Positions 33-64,000 of a stretch of 64,000 bases of DNA are shown here, piece after piece (position 1 is the first letter of the stretch; every line of letters starts with the position of its first letter). Below the pieces are notes generated by a model. That model was not told the DNA's origin, searched no databases, and was given only the letters and a program-made list of their open reading frames with translations. A program made the translations under genes and the position numbers. Source of the stretch: a virus (taxonomy: Duplodnaviria; Heunggongvirae; Uroviricota; Caudoviricetes); IMG/VR virus record IMGVR_UViG_3300013902_000267; one strand, 5' to 3'.

Positions 33-103
33 TGGGATATAATGTAATGGTAACATGGAATACTCTGAATGTTCTCTTACTGGTTCGAATCCGGTTATCC
101 CAA
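33..103 (+). tRNA. tRNA-Gln (anticodon CUG)
   Basis: Hand-folded cloverleaf: acceptor TGGGATA/TATCCCA, D stem ATGT/ACAT, anticodon stem GAATA/TGTTC with loop CTCTGAA (U33, CUG, A37), T arm ACTGG-TTCGAAT-CCGGT. Confidence 0.8.
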
Positions 104-222
104 CATATTCGTAATTTTTATTTTTTATTTTTTTTATTTTTAAAGGATTTATACATAAAGAGAAAAGGTTAATAAGATTTATTTCTTATTAACCTTTATT
201 ATTTTATTTCTTAAAATAAATA

Positions 223-9580: not shown

Positions 9581-9657
9581 TTTTTTTATTTCAAAATAAT
9601 TATGTATCTTTGTATTGTTAATAAACAAAAAGTATAAACAATTAAAAATATATAATT

Positions 9658-39035: not shown

Positions 39036-40082
39036 TTATTCAGATACATTATCTTTCATAACTTCATGATATTGTTCCTTTGCATATTCTTGCATATCAG
39101 GAACGTCATCTGTTTCATCAATAATTTCAATATTGAGTATTGTTTCGATAACATCCTCCAATGTTACAATACCTCTAAACGTTCCATATTCATCAGTAAT
39201 TGCAGAAATATGTTCATGATTCTTTACCATATCATTAAATATATCTGATACATCTGTAGTATCAATATAGTTATGAATATCATGGACATAATCAGAAATC
39301 TTAATATCCTCCTTTGTTAAATCCAATTCATTCTTAAGAATATAACCACTACAATAGTTATTCATATTCATACAAGGAATACGAGAGAATGTATCACCAT
39401 TAGAAAGATATTTATATAAATCTGTATCTTTATGAACTGTTATATAATCCGCAATAGTTTCAACAACAGTTGCAGGCGTCATAATATCTTCAGCTTTATA
39501 TTGATTAAGTTTCAATATACGTTGAATAATCATATTCTCTTTCTTATCAATTACTCCCTCTTTTGCACCTTCATCTGTCATTGCAATAATCTCTTCACGT
39601 GAAATAGCAACAGCATTATCATTACTAATAAGACGTGTTACAAAATTAAGAATCTTAACCAGTGGATATGTAATATAAATCATTATATTAATTACACGAG
39701 TAACATACAATGTAATATTTTTCCAATAATTTGCACCTATAGTTTTTGGTAAAATCTCAGCAAACATAAGAATCAATACTGTAAATATTGCTGATATGAT
39801 ACCTATAAATGAAGCGCCATCAATACCTTGTTCAACTGCATATGCTGATGCAGCTGAACCAACAATAGATGCACCTACTGTATTTGCAATAGTATTAATA
39901 ATAAGGATAGCAGACAATGGTTTATCCATATTTTCCTTAAAATTTCTTAATATATCTGCCCCAGATTTTCCTTTAAGTGTAGATACAAAAGACATAGGTG
40001 TAGAAGACAAACATGCTTCACATAACGAGCAAATTGCTGATACCACAATGGCAATCAACATATAAATTATAATTGTTTCCAT
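39036..40082 (-). CDS. CNNM/CorC-HlyC family membrane protein (DUF21 + CBS pair)
   Basis: N-terminal multi-TM DUF21-like region, then IMTPATVV and ISAITDEYGTFRGIVTLEDVIETI CBS-pair motifs. Confidence 0.75.
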   Translation of the reverse strand: METIIIYMLIAIVVSAICSLCEACLSSTPMSFVSTLKGKSGADILRNFKENMDKPLSAILIINTIANTVGASIVGSAASAYAVEQGIDGASFIGIISAIFTVLILMFAEILPKTIGANYWKNITLYVTRVINIMIYITYPLVKILNFVTRLISNDNAVAISREEIIAMTDEGAKEGVIDKKENMIIQRILKLNQYKAEDIMTPATVVETIADYITVHKDTDLYKYLSNGDTFSRIPCMNMNNYCSGYILKNELDLTKEDIKISDYVHDIHNYIDTTDVSDIFNDMVKNHEHISAITDEYGTFRGIVTLEDVIETILNIEIIDETDDVPDMQEYAKEQYHEVMKDNVSE

Positions 40083-40434: not shown

Positions 40435-40698
40435 TTAGAATGGCAGTTCAGATTCAATAACACCTGGCTCTCCTAATGGGAGAAAATCCATACATGTATT
40501 AGTATTAAATACACGATCAAATGCATACATTACAGAAAACTTTACAAACTCATCCTTATCAACAATAAGATCTGATGTTTCCTGCTGAATATATGATGCT
40601 TCTGCAACTAATGTATTTAATGTATCATTATCAGTTAATTCTTTATTAAAACGATTCTTATATTCGTTTTTAATCATTTCTATTAATGTTGTATTCAT
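40435..40698 (-). CDS. hypothetical protein
   Basis: Track ORF of 87 aa. Confidence 0.5.
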   Translation of the reverse strand: MNTTLIEMIKNEYKNRFNKELTDNDTLNTLVAEASYIQQETSDLIVDKDEFVKFSVMYAFDRVFNTNTCMDFLPLGEPGVIESELPF

Positions 40699-40730: not shown

Positions 40731-40742
40731 CACAAAGATACA
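40731..40742 (-). promoter_or_regulatory. conserved promoter core (gene-sense TGTATCTTTGTG; TAnnTTTG -7-like)
   Basis: One of 5 copies of the ACAAAGATACA motif (plus-strand spelling), each upstream of a minus-strand start codon. Confidence 0.45.
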
Positions 40743-40810
40743 CATATTTTTTAAAACAAAAAAATGATGATACTATATTTTTCAATATAATACCATCATT
40801 TAATATTTAA

Positions 40811-51518: not shown

Positions 51519-52227
51519 AATACTTTCTATACTCTTTGTATAATTTATCTATAATCAATTGGTTATCTAAATTTTCAATATGAATTTCATTTACCATTGC
51601 ACATAATTTCCATAATTCATATTGATTAATACCAGATTTTTCATAATCATGATACCATGTAGTTTCAGGAAACATCCATCCATCATCCTCGCCAATACCA
51701 AATATATGAATATCATTATGTAATTTATCTATAATTAATGATACACCACCATATGATTGACAATGACTATTATATGTAAAATGGTAAAGTCTTATAGAAG
51801 CTTCATCATAAAACCCTTTATCATAACAACCAAATGAATCCATCATATTACCTAAATAACACGGATCATAATCATATTCATATTTAACTTCTGCTAAATC
51901 ATTATACCAACGTGGTTGTCGATTTTTAATAACACCTATTTGAATAAGTTTATCTTCAATATCCTTATTATAAGGCCAATATTGCCATAAACAATTGCAT
52001 CCATAATGAGTTAATTCAGCAAATTTATATATATCATTCTGAATACATTCAAAGAATGGTGCATATTGCGTTTTATCTATATTATTTTCTTCAAAATATT
52101 TAAGATCATAACCACAACAACTACCATCTGCATCGGCAAGTAAATCTTCTTTCTGTTTATCAGATAATTCAGTTTTATTAAATATATATGGTAACCATTC
52201 AGAGCCTTTATTATAATCTAGAATCAT
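51502..52227 (-). CDS. hypothetical protein
   Basis: Track ORF of 241 aa. Confidence 0.5.
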   Translation of the reverse strand: MILDYNKGSEWLPYIFNKTELSDKQKEDLLADADGSCCGYDLKYFEENNIDKTQYAPFFECIQNDIYKFAELTHYGCNCLWQYWPYNKDIEDKLIQIGVIKNRQPRWYNDLAEVKYEYDYDPCYLGNMMDSFGCYDKGFYDEASIRLYHFTYNSHCQSYGGVSLIIDKLHNDIHIFGIGEDDGWMFPETTWYHDYEKSGINQYELWKLCAMVNEIHIENLDNQLIIDKLYKEYRKYYEHNK

Positions 52228-52478
52228 ATGGTACCTCCTTTCTTTATTAATATAGGTTTATAATAATCCTGAAAAAATTCAGGACATGCTAAAGGATTAA
52301 ATTCATTAGCTTTACGTAAATCTATATTTTCCCTTACATTTTTACAAAAAGGTTTAAGTACAGAAATTATATCATCTTCAAATATCTTTTCGCCTGTATT
52401 AATATCAACTAAACCAGTCCATGCAACATCTGATCTTTCAGATACCCATTGATTATTTTTATTTAGCCATGTTCTCAT
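52224..52478 (-). CDS. hypothetical protein
   Basis: Track ORF of 84 aa. Confidence 0.5.
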   Translation of the reverse strand: MRTWLNKNNQWVSERSDVAWTGLVDINTGEKIFEDDIISVLKPFCKNVRENIDLRKANEFNPLACPEFFQDYYKPILIKKGGTI

Positions 52479-52600
52479 TGTATAATTATCTTTTAGTTTT
52501 ACATTTAATTATACAAGATATTGAATAGAACAATAAATATATATATTCTATCCAATATCAGGCAGCCAGTTTCATTTATAGTTTGAAACAAACTTTTTAT

Positions 52601-52738
52601 TTATCGTACATCACCAGTAAAAATTGCCCATATAAACTGAAGTACCATTCCGATAACTCCAAATACTACAGGAATAATTACACATGCAAGTGCAAATACA
52701 GCAATCGCTATGATGATACCAAGTAAAAACATTATCAT
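52601..52738 (-). CDS. small membrane protein (45 aa)
   Basis: MIMFLLGIIIAIAVFALACVIIPVVFGVIGMVLQFIWAIFTGDVR, read by hand. Preceded by a promoter-motif copy. Confidence 0.4.
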   Translation of the reverse strand: MIMFLLGIIIAIAVFALACVIIPVVFGVIGMVLQFIWAIFTGDVR

Positions 52739-52783
52739 AATCTTTATATTTAAATTGTTAATATTTATGTTTATTATTTACAT

Positions 52784-52795
52784 TACAAAGATACA
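52784..52795 (-). promoter_or_regulatory. conserved promoter core (gene-sense TGTATCTTTGTA)
   Basis: Motif copy 46 nt upstream of start codon 52738. Confidence 0.45.
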
Positions 52796-52834
52796 TAATA
52801 TTTTCCTAAATAAAAAATATATTACCTAAAATTA

Positions 52835-53368
52835 TTAAGAATTTAAATAATTATGAAATGAACCATCATCAGAATCTCCAATAAGATTGTTCAATACATG
52901 CCAATACTCAAGATAACGCTTTGCTTTCTCCATATCCTGTGTTTCTTTCTCCTTATGGTCAGATCTCCAAATATACTTAAATGAATTCAACTTACAGAAA
53001 TCCATTGTTGCTTGTTTTCCAAATGTCTGAAGCATAGCTTCTATACATTGTAAGCCATTACCACCAGCGCCATAATGATTTGGATGTTCAACAACATTCA
53101 AATTCTGTGTACTAAAAATAGGATTTAATTTTGTCTTATGTAATTGTAAATGTGCAGGTTCATCCTTAAATACAATCTTCTCATAATTCAACGGTTCTCT
53201 ATTCTATTCAGCTACATTATCACTAATAGGTTCACCACATTTCTCGTCATTATCTGTTGCAACTTCATCGGTTCTATTAGAAACAAATACAATATCTTTA
53301 TCATCCTTTGTACGTGTAGGTTCACCATATACAGGTTCCTATGTACGAGTTTCCTTATTATAACTCAT
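52835..53368 (-). CDS. DUF3310-like phage protein (2 in-frame TAG)
   Basis: HPNHYGAGGNGLQCIEAM...FCKLNSFKYIWRSDHK...MEKAKRYL pattern. ATG 53368 is in frame with track ORF 52835-53191. Confidence 0.6.
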
Positions 53369-53413
53369 ATTATATCAATTAGTTTTCATTTATAATTATA
53401 CAGTAAAAATAAA

Positions 53414-53884
53414 TCATTGTTTAATAGATTTTAACGAAATTAATGTAGTTCCAGATAAATCTATTAAATCTTTTTCTTTTGATGAAAAATCTAATATATG
53501 TTGTGTATGAGTTTCTTTAATTATACCATCGTTTTCCTATATAGGTTCAGGTTCAATTAAATAAGATAACTATTCATTATTATCTTTTTTATGTATCATA
53601 TATAATGTATTCTGTTCTAACGCATCTTCTATTGAAAGTTCTTTAGTTGAACCATCAGCAAAATATGTTACGCTTGGTATTGGTGCATCTAAATCATAAT
53701 ACGTCTAAATAATATCATATTTAGACGTATCTATATCATTTATACTTTTAATATTAGTTAAATCATCTTCATCATTATTTTCATCTACAATATCTGACGT
53801 AATATCATTAACTCCTGTAAATTTTACTAATAGACAAAGAATAACAAAAAAACCTATACTTATTGATATTACTGGATCTATCAT
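53414..53884 (-). CDS. membrane-anchored hypothetical protein (3 in-frame TAG)
   Basis: 471 nt from ATG to TGA when TAG is read through; N-terminal TM helix ISIGFFVILCLLV. Confidence 0.5.
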
Positions 53885-53913
53885 AATCTCTTATTTTATT
53901 AAATTAATAATTA

Positions 53914-54147
53914 TTATTTACTCTCAAAATTAATAGTTGATACATCTTCCACTTTTTCTTTTAAACTATCAACTGTTATTGTATGTGTATTCTGTTGCTC
54001 TTGTAATGAGTCTACAATGAATTCCTGTGTTTGCTTAATATGCTTTAGCTTCTCTTCATAATCAATACGGAGACGATTTGCAATTACAAGCATCATTATA
54101 AATCCTAATACAAATAAAACAATAAATACTGTTACTATTATATTCAT
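53914..54147 (-). CDS. small membrane protein
   Basis: Track ORF of 77 aa with an N-terminal TM helix. Confidence 0.5.
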   Translation of the reverse strand: MNIIVTVFIVLFVLGFIMMLVIANRLRIDYEEKLKHIKQTQEFIVDSLQEQQNTHTITVDSLKEKVEDVSTINFESK

Positions 54148-54264
54148 ATTATTTTCTAATTAAAATTTTACTTTTTATTTATAGTATATTAAATCAATAA
54201 AGTTTATATATTAAAATAAAAAATGGATAGATAGTTAAACGAAAAAACTATCTATCCATCATAA

Positions 54265-55302
54265 TTATGCTTGATACGAATACTTGTCAAACAATGATTC
54301 AATATTAGAGGGATGCACAGCATTTATGCCGATTTCATTGCATTTTTTCAATGTATCATGGAAATCATCTATAAGACATACATCCTTAACATTCCACTTC
54401 ATTTTATGAGCAAACTGCTCAATAAAAACGTGCTTATAATTTTTATTTCCGACAAACATTCGGTTCTCAACAGGAATCTCTGGGAAATATTTATCAAGCC
54501 ATTCATTCTTCTCATTCCACGCTATTGAATTAGCACATGCAGTCACAATATAAACATTCTTCATGTCATAATGTTTCTTAACAAAATCAATGATATGTTT
54601 AACAGGCTTCAAATTTTTAAATAGTTCGCTACTTACAAAATCTGAATTTCCGTTAATATCAAGTTTTGCCTTGCCATAACAAGCTAATGTACCATCCATG
54701 TCAAGAAGTAAATACTTATTGGTAAAATAATCAACGCGAATGAATTCATCTACCAATGGGATGTACTTATTCTTACATGCTTCAATACGTAAATTTTTCT
54801 TATAAATATCTTCAATTGGAACTTTACGAGTTCTTCCTTGAAGTCTATTTATACAAACTTCTACAGGAGTATCAAAGAATATACAAGTAATCTTATCTAC
54901 ATTTTTATTTCTTAAATAATCTATAATACTAAGATTATAATGATTATTAATTCCACCGCCGTCAAGAATAACATTACAATTAATCTTTGAACTATCTGCA
55001 ATAGCAAAAATTATTTTTCGTGTTATTTGAACCGACTCTTCATGAACAACTTCCGGATGTTCATCAGTATAACCTTTTAACAATGGTTTAATTTCATCAG
55101 CAGAAATTACTATTGTTTCATTTATACAAAGATTATCTTCAATTGTCTGAATAATTTTATCTAAATTACATTCATCAAATGGTTTATCTAAAATAGATGT
55201 TAACCATTCAATGAGATGCAAAATATTTGGATAATTCTCTTGAAGATATGTACTTTTACCAGATGCAGGCAAACCGAGGAAGTACGAGAACTTACTGATC
55301 AT
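54265..55302 (-). CDS. polynucleotide 5'-kinase / 3'-phosphatase (T4 Pnk-like)
   Basis: N-terminal P-loop GLPASGKST, GRTRKVPIEDIYKKN (compare T4 KRGTKAVPIDVL), and a C-terminal HAD domain LLLDMDGTLA ... IDDF. Confidence 0.7.
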   Translation of the reverse strand: MISKFSYFLGLPASGKSTYLQENYPNILHLIEWLTSILDKPFDECNLDKIIQTIEDNLCINETIVISADEIKPLLKGYTDEHPEVVHEESVQITRKIIFAIADSSKINCNVILDGGGINNHYNLSIIDYLRNKNVDKITCIFFDTPVEVCINRLQGRTRKVPIEDIYKKNLRIEACKNKYIPLVDEFIRVDYFTNKYLLLDMDGTLACYGKAKLDINGNSDFVSSELFKNLKPVKHIIDFVKKHYDMKNVYIVTACANSIAWNEKNEWLDKYFPEIPVENRMFVGNKNYKHVFIEQFAHKMKWNVKDVCLIDDFHDTLKKCNEIGINAVHPSNIESLFDKYSYQA

Positions 55303-55327
55303 AACTAAAATATAATTTAATTTTTAA

Positions 55328-56911
55328 TTAGTCAACAGTTCCATCAAGAAGTTTATGAACTGCATCTTGACGAGTCTTTCGGATTTCAGCAAGTGTAAAC
55401 TCTCTTACTAACTTACCATCTTCAAAAACAGTCTTCAATTCATTCTTATCTGATGCTTCCTCTTCAGGCGTTACACGATCAACTGGTACATACTTACCAT
55501 TACCATCTTTTACAACCATAAGAAGTCCACGATGTGATTTCTTTGGCATACCGCATACTGTTTTAGGATCCTTATAAATTTCTATAGGTTTGCCATTAAC
55601 TTTACACCATGTAGACTTACAGGCTATGCCTAAAGAATCTCTGGATCGTACATTATAAGTAAAGCTTCCTATACCTTCAATAAGGTTAGTTGCTGCGAAA
55701 CCCTTATCTTCAAGTTGAGAATATGTATCCTTTTGGCGTTTCATATTAATTGAGTCTCCATAAAGAAGTCCAATATGTGGATCAAGAATTTTATATCCTT
55801 TTTCATTAAATGTTCCACCGAACGTATTCCAAAGAAATTCATAAGAACCCATCTTTACAAATGGATCTTCTGCTTCCGGATCACCACAAATAATTTTAAC
55901 AGGATCACCACTATCAGGACGAATTACTACACGCCCATTACGAGACATAATTTGTTCTTTATACTTAGGAACAATCTTTGTCAAGAAATACCAATAATCA
56001 TAACCATCTGCAACAATTGAAATAATACCATCTGGAAATTCATCAAGCATATTCTTAAAATAAACTTCATCATTTGGCTTACCTGTTTCATCTGTTGCAT
56101 TAGAGCACTCAATAGAATGTTCAGTAGCTGGAACAGTTGCAGCTATCAATTCTTTTTTAGGATCTGCATTATAATAATACTCAATCATCTTAATTGCTGG
56201 AACTGTTTCAGAACCACAAAAAGAAGTAAGATGTGCCATACCAGAAACAATAGATGCTTCAAATGAACTCATTCCTCTCATAGAGAAATCATGACATAGA
56301 AATGCAAGATTAGACATATCGTTAGGATTATAAAAACCAGTTTTCATAGCATGTCTAACAAGTTCACGTTTAAATACATCAGCTGTTGTTGCAGAAGTAA
56401 TTGGAAGCCAAAGGACATTTGAAGTCAAAGACTCCAAATAATTTGTGAGCCAAGCAAAATCAGGATGTGTATTTGTGATTGTTAAAATAGGGCATCCGAT
56501 TGGACAATATGAACCTTCAGGAAGTGCCTTAATACGAATAGGAAGATAACCAAGTTTATGCAATGCAATAATATGATCAACCCCTACTTTCTTTGCAACT
56601 GCTTCTCCTAGAAATGTAGTTGTCAAATCTGTATAAGTTTTTCGTACAGTATCTTCATCAAGATTAAAGAAATAATTATTAAATGTATTAATAAGATACT
56701 TCTTAATAAAATACTGAATACCAAACACAACTGCTCCCTCTGTAGCTTCCGGAAAATATTTATTACTACGAGGAGTAAAGTTACTGAAAAGTTGCGTCAT
56801 TCCCTTAGGGTACATACAGTGATGACCAAGCTTGTAGCCATCTGTCATAAGCATTGCATTAAGAAGTATGTCTTCTACCAATACATGCTGTGAATCTTTT
56901 ACGTTTGTCAT
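55328..56911 (-). CDS. nadV: nicotinamide phosphoribosyltransferase (NAMPT/NadV)
   Basis: LMTDGYKLGHHCMYPKG, VIRPDSGDP and LLYGDSIN motifs; 527 aa. Confidence 0.85.
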   Translation of the reverse strand: MTNVKDSQHVLVEDILLNAMLMTDGYKLGHHCMYPKGMTQLFSNFTPRSNKYFPEATEGAVVFGIQYFIKKYLINTFNNYFFNLDEDTVRKTYTDLTTTFLGEAVAKKVGVDHIIALHKLGYLPIRIKALPEGSYCPIGCPILTITNTHPDFAWLTNYLESLTSNVLWLPITSATTADVFKRELVRHAMKTGFYNPNDMSNLAFLCHDFSMRGMSSFEASIVSGMAHLTSFCGSETVPAIKMIEYYYNADPKKELIAATVPATEHSIECSNATDETGKPNDEVYFKNMLDEFPDGIISIVADGYDYWYFLTKIVPKYKEQIMSRNGRVVIRPDSGDPVKIICGDPEAEDPFVKMGSYEFLWNTFGGTFNEKGYKILDPHIGLLYGDSINMKRQKDTYSQLEDKGFAATNLIEGIGSFTYNVRSRDSLGIACKSTWCKVNGKPIEIYKDPKTVCGMPKKSHRGLLMVVKDGNGKYVPVDRVTPEEEASDKNELKTVFEDGKLVREFTLAEIRKTRQDAVHKLLDGTVD

Positions 56912-57106
56912 AAAATAATTTGTTTAAATTTTAATTTGATTACAATAATAATTTGTTTGTTTAATTATCTTGTAATCATTATTTATATATATTATTAATT
57001 AAATTGTTTATAAAATTCATATTAAAAAAATAACATCCTATTTTCACAAACAAGATGTTAATAATTCAAAGACATATTTATTTGAAAATTAAGTTGCGAA
57101 ATTAAT

Positions 57107-57652
57107 TTATGCAGCCTGTCGAACTTCCCAATCAATAATATCAACAACATACTTTTCTTTGTTGATAGAAATTGACTTAATATTTTTAAGTGAAAGTGTT
57201 CTATACTCAATAACAGAAGTACTTGCCTTTTTCTTTGGCATGAATCTCTTCATATACACTTCATCTTCTGCAGAAATCTTCTCACCATTAAGAATAATAT
57301 TATTCTTTGAATAATTATTAGGAATGTAAATCAAACATACATTACCTGTACTAATATATTGCATAACAACATTCTTTACAAGATGACGGCGATTTGTATC
57401 TGTTGCCTTATAATCCTCACCAAGAATCTTACTCATTGTCTTTTCATAATCCTGTCCAAAATGGAAAGTAACTGAGAAATCTGTGCGTGGTTGAAATCCA
57501 TCCTTAATATGTTCCTTAGGAAGACCATCTGTATTAAACTTATTCAACTTAATATCAGACTCACCATATACAGTGACATACTTACCGTTGCACTTTGCGT
57601 TAGACATAAGCTCGATAAACTCATCTACTGTTGTAATAATATTGTTGTTCAT
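57107..57652 (-). CDS. hypothetical protein
   Basis: Track ORF of 181 aa, preceded by the promoter/leader cassette. Confidence 0.5.
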   Translation of the reverse strand: MNNNIITTVDEFIELMSNAKCNGKYVTVYGESDIKLNKFNTDGLPKEHIKDGFQPRTDFSVTFHFGQDYEKTMSKILGEDYKATDTNRRHLVKNVVMQYISTGNVCLIYIPNNYSKNNIILNGEKISAEDEVYMKRFMPKKKASTSVIEYRTLSLKNIKSISINKEKYVVDIIDWEVRQAA

Positions 57653-57697
57653 ATTCTTTATATTTTTAATTGTTCAACTTAATTGTTTTATTAACAA

Positions 57698-57709
57698 TAC
57701 AAAGATACA
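57698..57709 (-). promoter_or_regulatory. conserved promoter core (gene-sense TGTATCTTTGTA) plus conserved leader
   Basis: TTATTAACAATACAAAGATACA is identical at 59021-59042 and 61889-61910; 46 nt to the start codon. Confidence 0.5.
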
Positions 57710-57746
57710 TGTTTTATTTCAAATAAAAAAATATTAGAAGAAAAAA

Positions 57747-57887
57747 TTAAATATTTTCTCTTAAAAATTTATCGATAAGTTTTTTAACACTATTACATTT
57801 ATATTGTGTTTCTACATAACTACCTGTCCAATCAGTATGAACATGAAAATTCTCAAGAAACCAGTTTGCAATCTTTTCTTTATCCAT
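57747..57887 (-). CDS. small hypothetical protein (46 aa)
   Basis: MDKEKIANWFLENFHVHTDWTG... read by hand; its start overlaps the stop of the upstream gene. Confidence 0.3.
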   Translation of the reverse strand: MDKEKIANWFLENFHVHTDWTGSYVETQYKCNSVKKLIDKFLRENI

Positions 57888-57888
57888 A

Positions 57889-58188
57889 TCAATAATCTTC
57901 TGCATCTCGTGAAACTCTCATATTCTTTAAATCATTAATGAGTTTTTCACACTCTTTTAACAATACATATATAGTAGAAATAATTATCACTATAATAAAT
58001 AATAATATTCCTAATGCTATATAAAACCCTGAATCTTCATAATTAGAAATAAACTTAAAACATGTAATTATATATGTAAAAGTAAATGGTATTACTAAAC
58101 ATAAAATCCAATTTATTATATGTCTCCATACATGTTTCTCTATATATTCGTTTCTCTCTTTATGTGATTTAAACCATTTATTTTCCAT
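57889..58188 (-). CDS. membrane protein
   Basis: Track ORF of 99 aa with two hydrophobic helices. Confidence 0.5.
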   Translation of the reverse strand: MENKWFKSHKERNEYIEKHVWRHIINWILCLVIPFTFTYIITCFKFISNYEDSGFYIALGILLFIIVIIISTIYVLLKECEKLINDLKNMRVSRDAEDY

Positions 58189-58229
58189 ATTTCCTATTTC
58201 TTTTTTACATCATCAATAGTTAGAATACG

Positions 58230-58415
58230 TCACTTTTTAATATAAAATTTCTTTATAGATGGAGATTCCTGTATTTCTTCAAATAATGAACATGGACTAA
58301 ACCAATTATGTACAGTCTTAGCATATTCCATTGCTGTCTCTTCTGAATCGCAAACTGCAGATAATTCACGATTATATTCGTCACATGTACGATAAACTTC
58401 TACAACTTCTTTCAT
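58230..58415 (-). CDS. hypothetical protein
   Basis: Track ORF of 61 aa. Confidence 0.45.
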   Translation of the reverse strand: MKEVVEVYRTCDEYNRELSAVCDSEETAMEYAKTVHNWFSPCSLFEEIQESPSIKKFYIKK

Positions 58416-58434
58416 AATTATATGTAATTTAAAA

Positions 58435-58623
58435 TTAATTATTCAAATGTATATCATTAATACATAAAGGGATAAAAATATAAAATATATTTTCTATATA
58501 TAATGATAAAATCAAATTCCATAAATTATCTATAGTTAACATATTATAATACCAAAATCCCAATATAGTTAGTACGCTACCTATGATAGAACATAAAATA
58601 GTAAATTTATATATTTGTTTCAT
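58435..58623 (-). CDS. small membrane protein
   Basis: Track ORF of 62 aa, hydrophobic. Confidence 0.45.
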   Translation of the reverse strand: MKQIYKFTILCSIIGSVLTILGFWYYNMLTIDNLWNLILSLYIENIFYIFIPLCINDIHLNN

Positions 58624-59009
58624 TCTTTAATTTTTCTACCTAAAATATTTTTTAACATCCATACCAACATATTAAATGCAACCAATAATTTATTTTCTGT
58701 ATCATCAGTCTCTTCTGAATGAACTATATTATCACCTTTCATATTTTCAAGTTTCACCGAATAACTATCAATAACCATATAATATTCTGTACTCATAGTC
58801 AAATCTTCAATACGACGGTATAAATCTTGAAGAGTATATGTATAATAACCTAATTTATACTTAACTAATTGTTCACAATAATCTTTGTGCATATTTACAT
58901 TATATTGATTTTTACCAATATAAATTAATGAAGCATCTGAAATATCAAGTCCAAGCTTCACCAATATATCCATATTATCTTTTGATAATGTAATTGTATT
59001 CTCTTTCAT
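58620..59009 (-). CDS. hypothetical protein
   Basis: Track ORF 58620-59030 trimmed to MKENTITL, because the promoter motif occupies 59031-59042. Confidence 0.5.
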   Translation of the reverse strand: MKENTITLSKDNMDILVKLGLDISDASLIYIGKNQYNVNMHKDYCEQLVKYKLGYYTYTLQDLYRRIEDLTMSTEYYMVIDSYSVKLENMKGDNIVHSEETDDTENKLLVAFNMLVWMLKNILGRKIKE

Positions 59010-59030
59010 ATATATAATTTTTATTAACAA

Positions 59031-59042
59031 TACAAAGATACA
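59031..59042 (-). promoter_or_regulatory. conserved promoter core (gene-sense TGTATCTTTGTA)
   Basis: Motif copy 22 nt upstream of ATG 59009. Confidence 0.5.
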
Positions 59043-59147
59043 TATTTTATTTTAAATAAAAAAGAGATATAACAAAATAATCTGTTATACCTCTTATAAA
59101 ATATATCTTAAAATAATAAAAAATTACATAATATATTGTAAAAGCAT

Positions 59148-60137
59148 CTATGTTTCCTCATCAGCTTTTAATTTTGGATATGCAGCTCTAAGTATCTGTA
59201 ATACACGTGTTTCTGTCATTCCATGTTCTTCTGCAACTTGCCATGTATTCTTTTCACCACGTCCATTAATACCATAGCAATCACATACAATTTCACCATC
59301 TCTTTCACCAAGAACTCTCTTTACATTATCTTCAAGTTCTCTTTCAAGATCAGCGTTATTAAGATTACTATCAGGGTCTTTAAATGTCCTATTAGCTGTT
59401 ACATCACCTAATGTTGTTTTAGAATCATCATCATCCCCGTATGATTTATCCAAACTATTTGCACGTGTATTTGCTTCCATTGTTTGTGCAAATGTTTCAT
59501 ATTTCAAATCTGGATGTTTCTTTACGAGAACATTATAAATATCATCAATATCAGGTTCATAACCATTCTTATTATATAATTGATCCTTGATACGAGCGGC
59601 TTCACGAGCAATACTACCCATATTACGGGGAACTGCCATATGTCCACCTACCTCATCAACAGCAGTCATAATTTCTCTACGAATATACCAAATAGCATAA
59701 GAAACAAAACGTACATCTTTACCTGGCAAACTTGGATCATATGTATCTGCTGCTTGCATAAGTCCTATATTTCCATATTGAATCATATCTTCCTTTGGTA
59801 TATTAATATTTTTATACTTATTGACAACAGAAATAACAAATGGAAGATTTGCGGACACCAACTTATTCTTTGCCTTTTCAATTTCTCTCTTATTATCAGA
59901 ATGTTGAATAATATCAGCAAGTTTCACTTCATCTGCATGTGATAATTGTTTTTTCTTATTAATAGCATGTAAATATGCAATAGTAGACTTTGCTGTATTT
60001 TCATCCTGTGTAATAGCAAAATCATCATGCAAATCCATATGCATTCCATTATTAGCTTCATTGAGTTTCTTTCTAATAGTCTTAGAAACATTTCTCATGA
60101 TACTTTCATACAATGTCTTCTTTTCATTTAACTTCAT
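59148..60137 (-). CDS. sigma-70 family RNA polymerase sigma factor
   Basis: Region 2 LPFVISVVNKYKN...YGNIGLMQAADTYDP...FVSYAIWYIRREI and region 4 WQVAEEHGMTETRVLQILRAAYPKL. The N-terminus carries the shared leader motif. Confidence 0.8.
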   Translation of the reverse strand: MKLNEKKTLYESIMRNVSKTIRKKLNEANNGMHMDLHDDFAITQDENTAKSTIAYLHAINKKKQLSHADEVKLADIIQHSDNKREIEKAKNKLVSANLPFVISVVNKYKNINIPKEDMIQYGNIGLMQAADTYDPSLPGKDVRFVSYAIWYIRREIMTAVDEVGGHMAVPRNMGSIAREAARIKDQLYNKNGYEPDIDDIYNVLVKKHPDLKYETFAQTMEANTRANSLDKSYGDDDDSKTTLGDVTANRTFKDPDSNLNNADLERELEDNVKRVLGERDGEIVCDCYGINGRGEKNTWQVAEEHGMTETRVLQILRAAYPKLKADEET

Positions 60138-60189
60138 ATCTTGATAAAAATTATTTCAATATTTTAAATATTTATCTTAAAATAAAAAT

Positions 60190-60216
60190 AGAGAATAGTT
60201 ATCGCAACTACTCTCT
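60190..60216 (-). terminator. rho-independent terminator
   Basis: AGAGAATAGTT / AACTACTCTCT hairpin (one mismatch), followed by a T run on the minus strand. Confidence 0.5.
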
Positions 60217-60231
60217 ATTTATAATTATCTA

Positions 60232-60789
60232 TTATTCTATATTTAATATTTGTTTAATCTTTACTATGTCATCCTGTGTTATACCTGAATAACTATCTAT
60301 TTTTATAAAGTTATCCTGTTGATATGTCATCATATCATCATCGTCATCTACTATACAATAATCTATTCTTAATTCATCATCTTTAAATTTAAAATAATCT
60401 TCATCATAAAATTGTTTATAGTTTCGCACATTTGTATTTCCGCTATACATAAGGAAATAATGAATTTCATTTCCTCTTATTGAGTGTTCATCATGATATT
60501 TTGGTGTTATACCTACTATATATTTAATTAAACATTTCAAATCTTTATACTTATCAAACGCATATTTTGTTGCTTCTAATGAAATCTCTCTCCATGACGA
60601 TGATATAACTAATCTTACATTATAATTCTCACATAATTGTTCTATAAGTTTTACTGCATTTTTGTCTACAAAATGATCACCATTTTCTTCATTTATATAT
60701 TTCTTTCCTTCCTTTGTAAAACACCAATTCGCATATTGTTCAGAATTCAAAACACCGTCTATGTCTAAAAATAATATTTTTATATTCAT
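60232..60789 (-). CDS. HAD-superfamily phosphatase
   Basis: ILFLDIDGVLN motif I, SSSWR, and a late VDDDDD acidic motif. Confidence 0.6.
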   Translation of the reverse strand: MNIKILFLDIDGVLNSEQYANWCFTKEGKKYINEENGDHFVDKNAVKLIEQLCENYNVRLVISSSWREISLEATKYAFDKYKDLKCLIKYIVGITPKYHDEHSIRGNEIHYFLMYSGNTNVRNYKQFYDEDYFKFKDDELRIDYCIVDDDDDMMTYQQDNFIKIDSYSGITQDDIVKIKQILNIE

Positions 60790-60792
60790 TTA

Positions 60793-61116
60793 TTAATCTT
60801 CATCAAAATTATCATATATTGAAATCTTATTCTTCCTACGTTCTTTCTTAGGTTCTATACAAGGAAAACAATACTCTCCTACATGCTTTATATATCTTTC
60901 ATTCGTATATGTTGGTTCACCTTTAAAATTAAAATTCCGTTGTTCACCATATGCAATATGTTTCTTTTTCTTCCATTTAACAACTTTATCTTTCTGTACT
61001 TCTATATCTTGTAAATCCTTATGTTTATTCTTTACTTTAAATTTTTTATCACATTCTACTACAAAACTAGATGAACCCTTATTTACTTTATGTGTTTGAT
61101 GATAACTTCTTGACAT
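60793..61116 (-). CDS. hypothetical basic protein
   Basis: Track ORF of 107 aa. Confidence 0.5.
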   Translation of the reverse strand: MSRSYHQTHKVNKGSSSFVVECDKKFKVKNKHKDLQDIEVQKDKVVKWKKKKHIAYGEQRNFNFKGEPTYTNERYIKHVGEYCFPCIEPKKERRKNKISIYDNFDED

Positions 61117-61132
61117 AATATAAATTTTTTAT

Positions 61133-61444
61133 TTATAATCTTTCTATATTTATAACTTTATCTGCTAATAATGGTTTTAATGTTTTATTAAACGTGTTTT
61201 CACTTATAGAAATTTTTTTATATCTTAATTTATATTCTCGTGTATTACTTTCAAAAGGATTATTTACTTCATATTTTAATTCAGAAGCAAAATATATTGT
61301 ATAATATATATTTGGTCTAACAGAATCATATGTTCTACTTATATTCTTTTCTATATATACAATGGATTTAATAGGTAAAATTATATTACTACATTTTATA
61401 TATTCTATATTATTTCCTTTACTATGATTTTTAAATTTTATCAT
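61133..61444 (-). CDS. hypothetical protein
   Basis: Track ORF of 103 aa. Confidence 0.5.
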   Translation of the reverse strand: MIKFKNHSKGNNIEYIKCSNIILPIKSIVYIEKNISRTYDSVRPNIYYTIYFASELKYEVNNPFESNTREYKLRYKKISISENTFNKTLKPLLADKVINIERL

Positions 61445-61448
61445 TTTA

Positions 61449-61853
61449 CTAAATATATCTTAAATCATCTGCATAATCGCACATATCTAAAAATTCATTT
61501 TGAAGTTCACTATCTATAATAGTAAATGCTCTGACTTCATCATATGATTTCTTGTCTGGAATAACATCACACCAATCTGCATCCACATCATATACTTTAT
61601 GCGTCGCTGTAGACATAACACGAATCATTGTTTTTTCTTTATATTCTTGTGTATATCCTAACGGTCCATATTCGTTAACTAATACTGTTTTCTTAAATGG
61701 CTTCATAATACATACAAGTCTTGTATTCATTTCATCTTTCTCACATGAATACATTCCTGGTATAAGCAATACTCTTTTACCTGTTGTTACATTTATATTA
61801 TATTCACAGTTACTTCTGAGAAATATCAAATCACCAATATTAAAGCACATCAT
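61449..61853 (-). CDS. hypothetical protein
   Basis: Track ORF of 134 aa, preceded by the promoter/leader cassette. Confidence 0.5.
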   Translation of the reverse strand: MMCFNIGDLIFLRSNCEYNINVTTGKRVLLIPGMYSCEKDEMNTRLVCIMKPFKKTVLVNEYGPLGYTQEYKEKTMIRVMSTATHKVYDVDADWCDVIPDKKSYDEVRAFTIIDSELQNEFLDMCDYADDLRYI

Positions 61854-61898
61854 AATTCTTTATATTTTTAATTGTTTATATTCTTATTTTATTAACAA

Positions 61899-61910
61899 TA
61901 CAAAGATACA
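61899..61910 (-). promoter_or_regulatory. conserved promoter core (gene-sense TGTATCTTTGTA) plus conserved leader
   Basis: 46 nt to start codon 61853. The leader ACAATTAAAAATATAAAGAAT is shared with the 57652 gene. Confidence 0.5.
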
Positions 61911-62091
61911 CATTATTTTTGATATAAAAAAGAAAACATAAAGAAATATCAATTTTTATAGTAAAAACAATTAAAATTCTATAGAAATCTTATTAAATTT
62001 TATAATATTTTTTAAACAAGTATAGATAAGAAAAGTCTACCATGACTTACATCATAATAGACTTATAGTACATCTTTAAAAATAATATCTG

Positions 62092-62187
62092 TGGATATAG
62101 ATGGACTCGAACCACCATGTATCTGCCCTAGAATTATGATACAAACTAACATCATATTAGTCGCGTTTACCATTTCGCCATATATCC
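62092..62187 (-). tRNA. type-II (long variable arm) tRNA, Ser(UGA)-like, with a non-canonical anticodon loop
   Basis: Acceptor GGATATA/TATATCC, Ser-like D arm TGGCGAAATGGTAAACGC, anticodon stem ACTAA/TTAGT with loop TATGATG (A33, U37), a 26-nt variable hairpin TGTATC..GATACA, and T arm GGTGG-TTCGAGT-CCATC. Confidence 0.55.
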
Positions 62188-62193
62188 ATATAG

Positions 62194-62266
62194 CAGGCCT
62201 GATGAGATTCGAACTCACAACAACATGATTAAAATTCGTGTGCTCTACCAATTGAGCTACAGGCCC
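62194..62266 (-). tRNA. tRNA-Lys (anticodon UUU)
   Basis: GGGCCTG acceptor, GCTC-AATTGGTA-GAGC D arm, anticodon loop ATTTTAA, and T arm GTGAG-TTCGAAT-CTCAT. Confidence 0.85.
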
Positions 62267-62322
62267 AAAGTTCTATTTTAAATTTCCACGCAATAGAACT
62301 CCGAAGATTTGTAGATCTGTGT

Positions 62323-62472
62323 TCATGGTACTTAATCTAATGCTTGTTTTTAATACTGACGTGTTAACCTCTTCACCAAATCCCCGATTAAATAATATGT
62401 AATAGAGGGGATTCATGGGTTCGAACCATGGATAATCAGTAAAATCATGATATATCACGAATGACACCATGA
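62323..62472 (-). ncRNA. tRNA-like element with closed acceptor stem and open anticodon stem (YrlA / Y-RNA-like topology)
   Basis: Minus strand reads ACTGA-TTATC-CATGG TTCGAAC CCATG-AATCCCC-(21 nt)-GGGGATT-TG-GTG AAGAGGTTAA CAC-G-TCAGT. The flanks TCATGGT (62466-62472) and ACCATGA (62323-62329) pair 25 nt out on each side. Confidence 0.55.
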
Positions 62473-62682
62473 CAATCTACGTTAACTGTAATACTAAAGC
62501 TCTTGACTCAATGCTAACGCTAAAATCTAGGATTCTGTTTATGCTAAATGTAATCAAGCTAATGCTTTAGTCAATTTACATATGTTATATATGATATTAT
62601 ATTCAAAGTCTATTATTCATATCAAAAATATTTTTAAGAAATAAATATCATAAATGAATCGATAACATTTATTATATAATAT

Positions 62683-63897
62683 ATGAATAAGAATTATAAC
62701 AAACTATATGAAGAAATGATGTCAGATATTTCAGTTATCGTTAAAAAGAAAATAAATGAAGCATATGACAATCAGCTTCTCGAAGAATATGGTGCAAAGG
62801 ATATGTTTAATGATATTATGAAAGAAGCATCAAAAGAAGGTAAAATCTTTTATAAGCATCTTAAATAGTTTATAATTTATATCATCAAAAAATTACAAGA
62901 GACAGATCAATATAAAAAAGCTGAAAAACTTATGAATGCGTATGTTCAGAAAGTACAGAAATATATTGATGAACATAAGAAGATTACTCCGAGACGTATG
63001 TTGAAAATTACTGTTGCTGTATTGACAATGTATGGAGGTGTTTCAATGATACAAGATTGTAAATAGATGATTAAATCTTTATAGGGTAATGTTGAAACTT
63101 ATGAATAGAAAGTAGAAAATGTACCGGATGAAAAGCAACAAGAAGTAATAGTAGAAGAACCTGAAGATTTTGTTGTTGAAGTTAAAGATGAAGCAAAAGA
63201 AAAATTAAGTGTCAAGAAAGTATCTACTGAAGATATTAATAATACACCTGAAAAGAAATTTAAGGAAGACAAGAATTTCAATTTTAAGTCAAGCAACGAG
63301 GCTCGCGAATTTATTAAACATCATGAGTTATGCTTACTTTACCCTTATTACGCAAAACCCGAAGAGGAAGCAAAAGGAATGGTAACTATTGGTTATGGTC
63401 ATGTTGTATTGGAATCAGATGGTGAATTATACAAGAAAGTATAGCAATTAAAAAAGAAAGGCTTAATTAAACAATCATTTGTTACAAAAAATGGTAAAAC
63501 TATTTTAAACCCTAATCATTGTAAAACCATTATAACAAAGACTGACGCAGATAAATTATTTTAGAAAGATATTAAGATTGCTGAATAGCGTGCATATAGA
63601 ACTATACAAAATATGCCTACTGATGATGATAATGTTAAATATTATATGTTATATAATCAAAAAATAAGAGATGGTTTAACATCATTATGTTATAATGCTG
63701 GATAGCTTAAACATGAAAAATATACATTCATAACAAAAGGTCTTGCAAAATCTAGATATGATTATCAAGCATAGAAAATAAATGCAGGTGATTATAATGT
63801 ATCCTTTAAATATTTCAAGAATATTAAAGATAATCCTAACAGAAGAAATGAGGAATATAAGTTATTCTTTATGAACGCAAATAAGTCTATGTCATAA
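62683..63897 (+). CDS. membrane-anchored GH24 (T4-type) lysozyme with long N-terminal extension (9 in-frame TAG)
   Basis: Track ORF 62683-62868 continues in frame through TAGs to TAA 63895-63897. TM helix ITVAVLTMYGGVSMI; HHELCLLYPYY...GMVTIGYGHVV...TKTDADKLF lysozyme motifs. Confidence 0.75.
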
Positions 63898-63922
63898 TAA
63901 AAAATAAATTTTAATTAAATAT

Positions 63923-64000
63923 ATGAAAAAATTATTTGAAGCAAAATAGAAGCCATTAGTTGTTTATAATCCTGCTGATATTTTCATGAAATATAATATG
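63923..64000 (+). CDS. hypothetical protein, 5' partial at window edge (1 in-frame TAG)
   Basis: ATG AAA AAA TTA TTT GAA GCA AAA TAG AAG CCA..., open to the end of the window. Confidence 0.35.

What the first reader, a model, noticed from the sequence alone, without database searches (positions are those of the whole stretch)
57653..57730. A five-copy promoter motif with a Bacteroidota-type -7 element, in three cases with a conserved leader
In gene sense the core TGTATCTTTGT(A/G) contains TATCTTTG, which matches TAnnTTTG, the -7 element of Bacteroidota sigma-A promoters. It occurs upstream of the minus-strand genes starting at 40698, 52738, 57652, 59009 and 61853. Three copies share the longer TGTATCTTTGTATTGTTAATAAAA. 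Two of those (57652 and 61853) also share the leader ACAATTAAAAATATAAAGAAT up to the ATG, with an identical 46-nt spacing. An upstream T-run (TTTTTTAT) lies about 20 nt 5' of the core. This probably defines one temporal class of phage genes, all small proteins of unknown function, and it hints at the host phylum.
Basis: partly seen in the sequence, partly recalled or inferred. Interest (0 to 1): 0.5.

Follow-up and report, generated by a model that had tools for sequence, protein, structure and literature searches.

The report
Host-type early promoter of Lak megaphage
The repeated motif is a real, very stringent Bacteroidota-style promoter of the Prevotella megaphage Lak-B7 (about 58 copies genome-wide), and it sits almost only in front of genes that avoid the phage's recoded TAG codon, so it probably marks the genes read before the phage switches the genetic code.

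Summary
The window is 100% identical to Prevotella phage Lak-B7 (550 kb, TAG read as Gln). It occurs 45 times in the genome, and a position matrix finds 58 sites against 1 in a null. The full element is an invariant T-run, a 19-nt spacer, then TG-TATCTTTG-TA. All six window copies are intergenic. Of the 58 genome-wide sites, 54 lie 19-53 nt before an ATG and the other four precede tRNA genes or other non-coding stretches. This matches the Bacteroidota sigma-A -33/-7 layout. The same extended motif lies upstream of gyrA, gyrB and other chromosomal genes in Bacteroidota genomes. The phage version is far stricter than host promoters. Genes directly behind it almost never carry in-frame TAG (2/48). 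Genes behind a second motif, ATAAATA, usually do (94/123). That supports an early, standard-code class. No transcription starts were mapped, and which sigma factor reads the motif is unresolved. It is a new member of a known kind, of moderate interest.

The parts
57698..57731 (-). Class I promoter (the focal copy). T-run at 57725-57731, A-rich spacer, TG at 57708-57709, -7 box TATCTTTG at 57700-57707, TA at 57698-57699. The predicted start is near 57695.
   Evidence: PWM score 46.8. The block from the T-run to TGTATCTTTGTATTGTTAAT is identical in Lak-A1 and Lak-C1 apart from five substituted positions in the A-rich spacer, while the flanks carry indels.
57653..57697 (-). Leader of gene 57107-57652. 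It includes the ATG-anchored box AACAATTAAAAATATAAAGAAT at 57653-57674.
   Evidence: It is predicted to be unstructured: MFE -1 kcal/mol, z +1.56.
61899..61932 (-). Class I promoter upstream of gene 61446-61853.
   Evidence: score 46.0.
61854..61876 (-). Leader box AACAATTAAAAATATAAAGAATT before the ATG at 61853.
59031..59064 (-). Class I promoter upstream of gene 58620-59009. The leader is short, 23 nt from the G to the ATG.
   Evidence: score 48.3. The promoter block is conserved in Lak-A1 and Lak-C1 while the leader has diverged.
59062..59095 (-). Terminator-like hairpin (15-bp stem) at the end of the sigma gene. Its T-tail is the promoter's T-run.
   Evidence: terminator scan; dG -15.7. 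The stem is kept with different sequence in Lak-A1.
52784..52817 (-). Class I promoter upstream of a 45-codon hydrophobic ORF that starts at 52738.
   Evidence: (score 42.6).
52739..52759 (-). Leader box variant AACAATTTAAATATAAAGATT.
40731..40764 (-). Class I promoter (core ends in G: TGTATCTTTGTG) upstream of gene 40435-40698. The unit continues into the CNNM/CBS gene 39036-40082.
   Evidence: (score 42.2).
40763..40800 (-). Strong hairpin (17-bp stem, dG -17.3) that ends at the T-run of the 40740 promoter. Together they form a composite terminator/promoter.
9581..9614 (+).
   Evidence: score 47.1.
9637..9657 (+). Leader box AACAATTAAAAATATATAATT before the ATG at 9658.
59124..60137 (-). Context: phage sigma-70-family gene, 337 codons with one sense TAG at codon 330.
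   Evidence: Pfam Sigma70_r2 at 1.3e-11 plus weak r1.2, r3 and r4. NCBIfam RpoD/RpoS-like but far below the cut-offs. PHROG 351 at 2.4e-42. Orthologs have K or R at the TAG position.
60169..60175 (-). Context: class II motif ATAAATA 31 nt before the sigma ATG, preceded by a terminator-like hairpin at 60186-60220.
62641..62647 (+). Context: class II motif ATAAATA 35 nt before the TAG-rich lysozyme gene 62683-63897 (9 TAG).

Best explanation
The element is the promoter of one transcription class of the Prevotella megaphage Lak-B7. It has the two-part layout of Bacteroidota primary-sigma (sigma-A, sigma-ABfr) promoters. A T-run lies at about -36 to -30. An A-rich 19-nt spacer ends in TG. The -7 box TATCTTTG sits at -12 to -5 and is followed by TA. 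Transcription is predicted to start about 5 nt after the G. The transcript has a short, A-rich, unstructured leader of 15-49 nt. The phage copies are an idealised, near-invariant version of the degenerate host consensus, as is usual for strong phage early promoters. Host RNA polymerase with its own sigma-A most likely fires them right after infection. The genes they drive can be translated with the standard code, because they avoid in-frame TAG. That fits expression before the phage's TAG-to-Gln switch. TAG-rich genes (lysozymes, homing endonucleases, replication genes) instead sit behind a different motif, ATAAATA. In about 40% of copies a terminator hairpin abuts the T-run, giving compact terminator-promoter cassettes. 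In about 30% a conserved ATG-anchored leader box is also present. Shown: the motif, its anatomy, its enrichment, its conservation, its link to TAG-free genes, and use of the same motif before cellular genes in Bacteroidota. Inferred: the start site, the sigma factor, and early timing.
For: Identity and code: the window is 100% Lak-B7. Reading TAG as sense raises ORF coverage from 67% to 85%. Enrichment: 6 window copies against 0.08 expected. TATCTTTG is the top-ranked upstream 8-mer genome-wide, in 45 of 294 regions against 2.9 expected. Among TAnnTTTG variants only nn=TC is enriched in intergenic DNA (51 intergenic, 46 of them 15-120 nt before a same-strand ATG). Intergenic copies have an invariant TTT at -23 to -21 and TG at -2/-1 in 96%, while coding copies have no flank signal. 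The PWM finds 58 sites against 1 in a Markov null. Of these, 54 are followed by an ATG-ORF 19-53 nt after the G. The rest precede tRNA genes or other non-coding stretches. Layout matches the literature: -7 box at -12 to -5, 5 nt to the start, -33 TTTG, AT-rich phased upstream motifs (PMC6847099, PMC9723704, PMC7366714). Host use: a GTDB scan for TTTTT-N16-TGTATCTTTGTA gave 60 Bacteroidota among 120 matches. Of those, 25/60 were non-coding and upstream of an ORF, against 4/60 in other phyla (p=1e-5). The downstream genes include gyrB, gyrA, a PRTase, Fe-ADH and a peroxiredoxin. Independent TAnnTTTG sites in those loci have a broad nn distribution, with G the most common base at -1 and A at +9. 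Conservation: the same motif occurs in Lak-A1 and Lak-C1, and orthologous promoters are conserved amid diverged flanks. It is also present in Lak relatives down to about 70% identity. Class link: in-frame TAG occurs in 2/48 class I genes (both at the 3' end) against 94/123 ATAAATA genes, p=2.9e-19. This replicates in Lak-A1/C1 at 0/8 against 18/29. Class II window genes include a tail lysozyme, a lysozyme, GIY-YIG and HNH endonucleases, NrdD and a DnaB-like helicase. Leaders are unstructured. E. coli-type -35/-10 sites are not enriched.
Against: No transcription start or expression data exist for Lak phages, so promoter activity, start site and timing are all inferred. The -33 position holds TTTT(T), not the textbook TTTG. 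The phage motif is much stricter than host promoters: nn=TC in about 55 of 58 sites against 12 of 67 in the Bacteroidota loci. That could mean a more selective factor than host sigma-A. The S. copri dRNA-seq preprint prints the -7 box as TAnnTTTCA (10.1101/2024.04.05.588293), which differs in its last letters. The TAG suppressor tRNA and the RF2 gene are not directly behind a class I site, so the early class does not obviously contain the code-switch machinery. My gene calls are a crude longest-ORF set.
Confidence: 0.65

Rival explanations
1. The motif is a promoter, but it is read by a phage-specified sigma factor rather than by host sigma-A. That could be the sigma-70-family protein at 59124-60137 or another phage factor, either made early or delivered with the virion. 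The near-invariance of TGTATCTTTGTA would then reflect the narrower specificity of that factor.
For: The phage encodes a full-length group-1/2-like sigma. It is conserved across Lak lineages. The phage motif is far more stringent than host promoters. The sigma gene has its own ATAAATA site and is bracketed by terminator-like hairpins, like TAG-rich genes. It shares an N-terminal ~27-residue motif ending in (L/I)NE with a lysozyme and about 12 other proteins. That motif might be a sorting or processing signal.
Against: The identical extended motif sits before ordinary chromosomal genes (gyrA, gyrB and others) in Bacteroidota genomes that have no such phage factor. Both boxes and their spacing fit the host layout. 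Nothing shows that the sigma is packaged. The meaning of the N-terminal motif is untested, and Pfam finds nothing in the other carriers. A phage sigma more commonly drives middle or late classes.
Confidence: 0.2
2. The conservation mainly reflects a mobile or recombinogenic terminator-promoter-leader cassette, like the PeSL elements of T4-type phages. Such a cassette spreads and shuffles genes. On this view sequence identity is due to common descent and gene conversion rather than to the needs of the polymerase.
For: 24 of 58 copies have a strong hairpin ending 0-4 nt before the T-run (terminator scan). Sixteen leaders share an ATG-anchored box (mean pairwise identity 76%, up to 91%) in front of non-homologous genes; only one paralog pair exists among the 54 downstream genes, and it is not among these 16. 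PeSLs are described as a stem-loop, then a near-perfect host promoter, then translation signals and the ATG (PMC4122927). A gene block next to the 57707 cassette differs between Lak-B7 and Lak-A1.
Against: This explains similarity among copies but is not an alternative to promoter function, since PeSLs are promoters too. The core is held invariant across lineages that differ by 20-30% elsewhere, which indicates selection. The one recent indel examined, the 946-bp Lak-B2 insertion at 55322/55334, is not at a cassette.
Confidence: 0.1
3. The motif is not a promoter. It is instead a binding site for a regulator or another DNA-level signal, such as an operator, or a replication or packaging signal, that happens to lie upstream of genes.
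For: Nothing specific supports this. Function has not been measured. The downstream ATTGTT...AACAAT looks like an inverted repeat in some copies.
Against: The strict co-orientation with the downstream gene, the narrow distance to the ATG, the match to both host promoter boxes with canonical spacing, and the use before cellular genes in Bacteroidota all point to a promoter. The inverted-repeat arms do not co-occur consistently and their spacing varies.
Confidence: 0.03

Closest known systems
Bacteroidota primary-sigma (sigma-ABfr / sigma-A) promoters: -33 TTTG and -7 TAnnTTTG (revised to TAHHTTTG)
   Same: The -7 box TATCTTTG fits TAHHTTTG. A T-rich element lies 19 nt upstream at the -33 position. 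The spacer is A/T-rich. There is no Shine-Dalgarno sequence, the leader is A-rich and unstructured, and A is at -3. The same extended motif is found before chromosomal genes in Bacteroidota (PMC6847099, PMC7366714, PMC9723704).
   Different: The phage version is almost invariant over about 34 nt: nn=TC, TG before the box and TA after it, and TTTTTT(A)TTT instead of TTTG. Host promoters in the sampled loci are degenerate at all these positions.
PeSL (promoter-early stem-loop) composite terminator/promoter cassettes of T4-type phages
   Same: A stem-loop lies just upstream of a near-consensus host-type early promoter. Conserved translation-initiation sequence and the ATG follow. The cassettes are scattered through the genome in front of small, mostly unknown genes (PMC4122927, PMC2839356).
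   Different: The host signals are different (Bacteroidota -33/-7, no SD). The hairpin is present in only about 40% of copies. A role in gene shuffling was not demonstrated here.
T4 late promoter TATAAATA (relevant to the second class seen here, not to the finding itself)
   Same: The second Lak motif, (A/T)ATAAATA, is a single short A/T box without an upstream partner. It lies 20-40 nt before the ATG of lysis and other TAG-rich genes.
   Different: No gp55-like factor was looked for. The resemblance is by sequence only and comes from memory of the T4 consensus.
The stop-codon-recoding model for Lak and crAss-like phages (early genes in standard code, late genes recoded)
   Same: TAG-free and TAG-rich genes form separate groups, and structural and lysis genes are recoded (10.1101/2021.08.26.457843).
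   Different: The three Lak papers held here never use the word promoter. The split of the two codon-usage groups between two promoter motifs is added here.

Membership tests
Bacteroidota sigma-A (-33/-7) promoter | -7 element TAnnTTTG (TAHHTTTG) | tested here: met
   TATCTTTG is exact in all 6 window copies and in about 55 of 58 genome sites. The variants are TATCTTCG, TAACTTTG and TATCGTTG.
Bacteroidota sigma-A (-33/-7) promoter | -33 element TTTG about 19-21 nt upstream of the -7 box | tested here: inconclusive
   TTT is invariant at the right place with a 19-nt spacer, but the fourth base is T (82%), not G. The literature reports the -33 element as weak or absent in several species (PMC6847099; PMC7366714; 10.1101/2024.04.05.588293).
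Bacteroidota sigma-A (-33/-7) promoter | Lies in non-coding DNA upstream of, and co-oriented with, a gene or RNA gene | tested here: met
   6 of 6 in the window. Genome-wide, 54 of 58 are followed by an ATG-ORF within 19-53 nt, and the others precede tRNA genes or other non-coding stretches.
Bacteroidota sigma-A (-33/-7) promoter | Transcription starts about 5 nt downstream of the G of the -7 box | not testable with these tools
   No RNA data are available. The start sites given are predictions.
Bacteroidota sigma-A (-33/-7) promoter | Recognised by host core polymerase with sigma-A | not testable with these tools
   Indirect support only: the same extended motif lies before gyrA, gyrB and other cellular genes in Bacteroidota.
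PeSL-type terminator/promoter cassette | Stem-loop immediately upstream of a near-consensus early promoter | tested here: met
   24 of 58 genome copies and 2 of 6 window copies (40763-40800, 59062-59095). The feature is not universal.
PeSL-type terminator/promoter cassette | Cassette coincides with indel or replacement breakpoints between related genomes | tested here: inconclusive
   The Lak-B2 insertion at 55322/55334 is not at a cassette. A block replaced between Lak-A1 and Lak-B7 (57887-58622) lies next to one. Too few events were examined.
Proteobacterial-type sigma-70 promoter (TTGACA-N17-TATAAT) | -35/-10 hexamers enriched | tested here: not met
   75 sites against 89.4 +/- 10.6 in shuffles over 52000-62500.

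The most novel reading that the evidence does not exclude
The class I promoters are not read by host sigma-A. They are read by the phage's own full-length sigma factor. That sigma is made from an ATAAATA unit together with TAG-rich genes. It carries the shared N-terminal (K)KxLYESIMxxVSKxVKKKLNE peptide as a virion-targeting or processing signal, and it is injected with the DNA. A megaphage would then bring its own sigma to launch a standard-code early programme from super-stringent host-like promoters.
Probability: 0.1. Interest if true: 0.85.

Novelty: new member of a known kind. Interest (0 to 1): 0.5.

Why it matters
Lak megaphages are uncultured, and nothing in the Lak papers held here describes their transcription signals. 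A sequence-defined early promoter, plus a second motif for TAG-rich genes, lets every Lak gene be assigned to a predicted expression class from sequence alone. It turns the idea that early genes use the standard code and late genes use the recoded one into something directly testable with 5'-end RNA-seq on Lak-positive gut samples. It also independently supports a Bacteroidota host. The roughly 34-nt consensus is a candidate strong, compact promoter for Prevotella and Bacteroides engineering.

Tried and rejected
1. Leader as a structured RNA, or the ATTGTT...AACAAT inverted repeat as a hairpin or operator: rejected. Predicted leaders are less structured than shuffles. The predicted start lies inside the 5' arm. 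The arms do not co-occur consistently, and the AACAATT box keeps its distance to the ATG (20-21 nt in 11 of 19; 19-22 nt in 13 of 19), not to the promoter.

2. Leader conservation as a by-product of gene duplication: rejected. Only one paralog pair exists among the 54 downstream genes, and none among the 16 box-bearing leaders.

3. Multiple sigma paralogs: the phmmer hits to the sigma turned out to share only an N-terminal 27-residue motif, not sigma domains.

4. Finding bacterial relatives of the sigma to infer its specificity: the large protein search listed only Lak orthologs among its best 120 of 132 hits. The PDB search gave generic RpoD, RpoS and SigA matches. Neither was informative.

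5. My first operon walk placed the sigma gene in a class I unit. The terminator scan shows it is bracketed by hairpins and has its own ATAAATA site. I also first read its TAG as a stop. Orthologs show it is a sense position, K or R.

6. Code-switch genes under class I: not found for the suppressor tRNA(CTA) or for RF2.

7. A tRNA-like 3' end that I saw upstream of RF2 is not called by ARAGORN.

8. PeSL-style shuffling: the one clean Lak-B2/B7 indel is not at a cassette.

9. Pfam and PHROGs on the first genes behind the six window promoters gave nothing above the curated cut-offs. The 45-codon ORF at 52738 was not scanned.

Full report
**What the window is.** Window 55000-64000 is 100% identical to Prevotella phage Lak-B7 (MK250026.1, 550,702 bp, from baboon faeces), and the record carries no annotation. 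The whole window maps to record positions 139512-203511. Lak phages read TAG as glutamine (PMC6784885, PMC8346664). Treating TAG as sense raises the ORF coverage of the window from 67% to 85%. I fetched the whole genome. I then made a crude code-15 gene set of 602 ORFs covering 90% of the genome.

**The observation.**
- TGTATCTTTGTR occurs 6 times in the window against 0.08 expected. A sixth lies on the plus strand at 9603-9614, before the gene at 9658.
- The 24-mer is exact in three copies and has one mismatch in the 9603 copy.
- All six copies are intergenic and point at the next gene. They lie 23-47 nt before its ATG, counted from the G of the box.
- The ORF at 52738 is a 45-codon hydrophobic peptide.
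The 61853 copy has one extra T before the ATG.

**Genome-wide picture.**
- The 12-mer occurs 45 times in the genome.
- Without any prior, TATCTTTG is the top-ranked 8-mer in upstream intergenic DNA. It is in 45 of 294 regions against 2.9 expected.
- Among all TAnnTTTG variants, only nn=TC is enriched outside genes. There are 51 intergenic and 52 coding copies in a genome that is 10% intergenic. Of the intergenic copies, 46 lie 15-120 nt before a same-strand ATG.
- The intergenic copies share long flanks. TTT is invariant at -23 to -21 within TTTTTT(A)TTT. The spacer is A-rich. TG lies directly before the box in 96%, and TA directly after.
- The coding copies have no flank signal at all.
- A position matrix finds 58 sites with score at least 20, against 1 in a Markov null of equal size.
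- Of these, 54 are followed by an ATG-ORF 19-53 nt after the G. The others stand before tRNA genes or other non-coding stretches, for example genome 125973 and 126096 ahead of the tRNAs at 126577-130278.

**Why it is a Bacteroidota-type promoter.**
- In Flavobacterium the -7 box occupies -12 to -5, and the start lies 5 nt after it. The box is TAHHTTTG, and phased A/T-rich motifs lie upstream (PMC6847099, PMC9723704). The textbook -33 element is TTTG (PMC7366714).
- Placing the G of the Lak box at -5 puts the invariant TTT at -35 to -33, with a 19-nt spacer.
- E. coli-type -35/-10 sites are not enriched: 75 against 89 +/- 11.
- I scanned one genome per GTDB species for TTTTT-N16-TGTATCTTTGTA.
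- In that phylum 25 of 60 matches are non-coding and directly upstream of an ORF, against 4 of 60 in other phyla, p=1e-5.
- The downstream genes there include gyrB, gyrA, a phosphoribosyltransferase, an iron alcohol dehydrogenase and a peroxiredoxin.
- Other TAnnTTTG sites in the same loci are six times denser upstream of genes than inside them. Their nn usage is broad (TT 13, TC 12, TA 10 and so on). G is the most common base at -1, and A the most common at +9.
- So the phage motif is the consensus-most form of a degenerate host signal.

**Conservation.**
- Lak-A1 and Lak-C1 are about 80% identical to Lak-B7 here. Each carries six such sites in about 47 kb.
- At the orthologs of the 57707 and 59040 promoters the promoter block is conserved. 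At 57707 the stretch from the T-run to TGTATCTTTGTATTGTTAAT is identical apart from five substituted positions in the A-rich spacer. At 59040 the stretch from the T-run to TGTATCTTTGTAT is identical apart from one. The upstream DNA and the leaders carry indels and substitutions.
- In IMG/VR, 37 of 116 matching stretches belong to Lak relatives of 69-99.9% identity.

**Link to the genetic code.**
- Genes with a class I site within 75 nt upstream almost never contain in-frame TAG. Only 2 of 48 do (0.22 per 1000 codons). In both, the TAG is at the extreme 3' end.
- A second motif emerged from the remaining intergenic regions: ATAAATA, often AATAAATA. It is in 129 of 287 regions against 19 expected. 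It sits sharply 20-40 nt before the ATG.
- Genes behind ATAAATA are TAG-rich: 94 of 123 carry TAG (12.6 per 1000 codons). Fisher p=2.9e-19.
- The contrast repeats in the Lak-A1/C1 loci, at 0 of 8 against 18 of 29, p=0.003.
- In the window, the ATAAATA or TAG-bearing genes include a tail lysozyme, a phage lysozyme, GIY-YIG and HNH endonucleases, an NrdD fragment, an RNA ligase and a DnaB-like helicase.
- The class I units hold unknown small proteins plus NAMPT, an NT5C/AAA protein, a CNNM/CBS protein and a HAD protein.
- This fits the published model that standard-code genes are expressed first and recoded genes later (10.1101/2021.08.26.457843).
- The three Lak papers held here never mention promoters.

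**Extra anatomy.**
- 24 of 58 sites have a strong hairpin ending 0-4 nt before the T-run, so the T-run doubles as a terminator tail. In the window these hairpins are 40763-40800 and 59062-59095, and the second is also found by the terminator scan.
- Sixteen leaders share an AACAATT(T)AAA box. Across the 19 leaders that contain ACAATT, the box keeps its distance to the ATG (20-21 nt in 11; 19-22 nt in 13) rather than to the promoter. The 16 box-bearing leaders precede non-homologous genes.
- The leaders are predicted to be unstructured. That suits Shine-Dalgarno-less initiation in this phylum (PMC6847099).
- The whole unit resembles the PeSL terminator/promoter cassettes of T4-type phages (PMC4122927). 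I could not show a role in gene shuffling.

**Which sigma factor?** This stays open.
- The gene at 59124-60137 encodes a full-length but divergent sigma-70-family protein.
- It is bracketed by terminator-like hairpins and has its own ATAAATA site.
- Its single TAG is a sense position, K or R in orthologs.
- It shares an N-terminal 27-residue motif with a lysozyme and about 12 other proteins.
- Host sigma-A remains the simplest reader of class I, because the same motif serves cellular genes. The unusual stringency of the phage sites keeps a phage-factor model alive.

**Verdict.** It is a new member of a known promoter kind. It has one useful new association with codon reassignment. That association, and the predicted early timing, still need RNA data.

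Noticed in passing
window 883(-), 10241(+), 13921(-), 14351(+), 24495(-), 28942(-), 32711(-), 42001(-), 54182(-), 60175(-), 62641(+) (position of the 5' A of ATAAATA on its own strand); genome-wide in L001-L012: A second promoter-like motif, ATAAATA (often AATAAATA), sits 20-40 nt before the ATG. It lies 12-45 nt before the ATG of 123 genes, and 76% of those contain in-frame TAG. It resembles the T4 late promoter TATAAATA by sequence.
   Followed up: partly
window 60057-60137 (sigma, N-terminus), 62683-62763 (lysozyme), 766-846 (gene 223-846); about 11 more in L001-L011: An N-terminal ~27-residue motif, (K)KxLYESIMxxVSKxVKKKLNE, is shared by about 14 otherwise unrelated Lak-B7 proteins, including the sigma factor and a lysozyme. 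It always ends in (L/I/M)NE or a similar triplet. Its function is unknown. It may be a sorting or propeptide signal.
   Followed up: partly
window 59148-59150: The sigma gene's single TAG (codon 330 of 337) aligns with K or R in orthologs from other Lak lineages, and the C-terminal MLLQYIM is conserved. So in Lak-B7 the full-length sigma needs TAG suppression, while in other lineages it does not.
   Followed up: yes
window 60186-60220 and 59062-59095 (-): Terminator-like hairpins bracket the sigma gene and make it a separate one-gene unit. Each hairpin is followed at once by a promoter motif, ATAAATA and class I respectively.
   Followed up: partly
window 23567-24463 (-), 26779-27726 (-), 27783-28901 (-): GIY-YIG and HNH/HTH endonuclease genes, both containing TAG, lie next to an N-terminal fragment of anaerobic ribonucleotide reductase (ATP-cone plus NRDD positions 15-157 of 562). 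This suggests an nrdD gene split by mobile endonuclease or intron insertions.
   Followed up: no
L003:25973-26160, L003:26096-26160, L010:31990-32050 (genome 125973+, 126096+, 482050-): Three class I promoters that are not followed by an ORF share the box G(T/A)TCTTTGAAAT(A/T)TTGATA about 30 nt after the -7 box. Two of them head the large tRNA array. Rfam finds only tRNAs there.
   Followed up: partly
L009:14053-14125 (genome 414053-414125); L007:45556-45628 (genome 345556-345628): The TAG suppressor tRNA (anticodon CTA) directly follows a TAG-rich GIY-YIG-like ORF and has no class I site nearby. ARAGORN also calls a tRNA with anticodon TTA, which would read TAA, 621 nt after a class I site.
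   Followed up: no
L006:41031-42167 (genome 291031-292167): A release-factor gene, found by its GGQNVN motif and presumed to be the RF2 reported for Lak phages, is TAG-free. It has neither an exact class I nor a class II motif upstream. A hairpin plus T-run lies just before it. More promoter types probably exist.
   Followed up: no
window 55322/55334 and 55624-55686: Lak-B2 carries a 946-bp insertion relative to Lak-B7 in the short spacer between the NT5C/AAA gene and the NAMPT gene. Lak-A1 carries about 1.4 kb extra inside the NAMPT gene. Both look like mobile insertions.
   Followed up: no
window 33-104 (+), 62193-62266 (-): There are two tRNA genes in the window: Gln(CTG) and Lys(TTT). The crude ORF call 62063-62470 overlaps the Lys tRNA and is probably spurious.
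   Followed up: no
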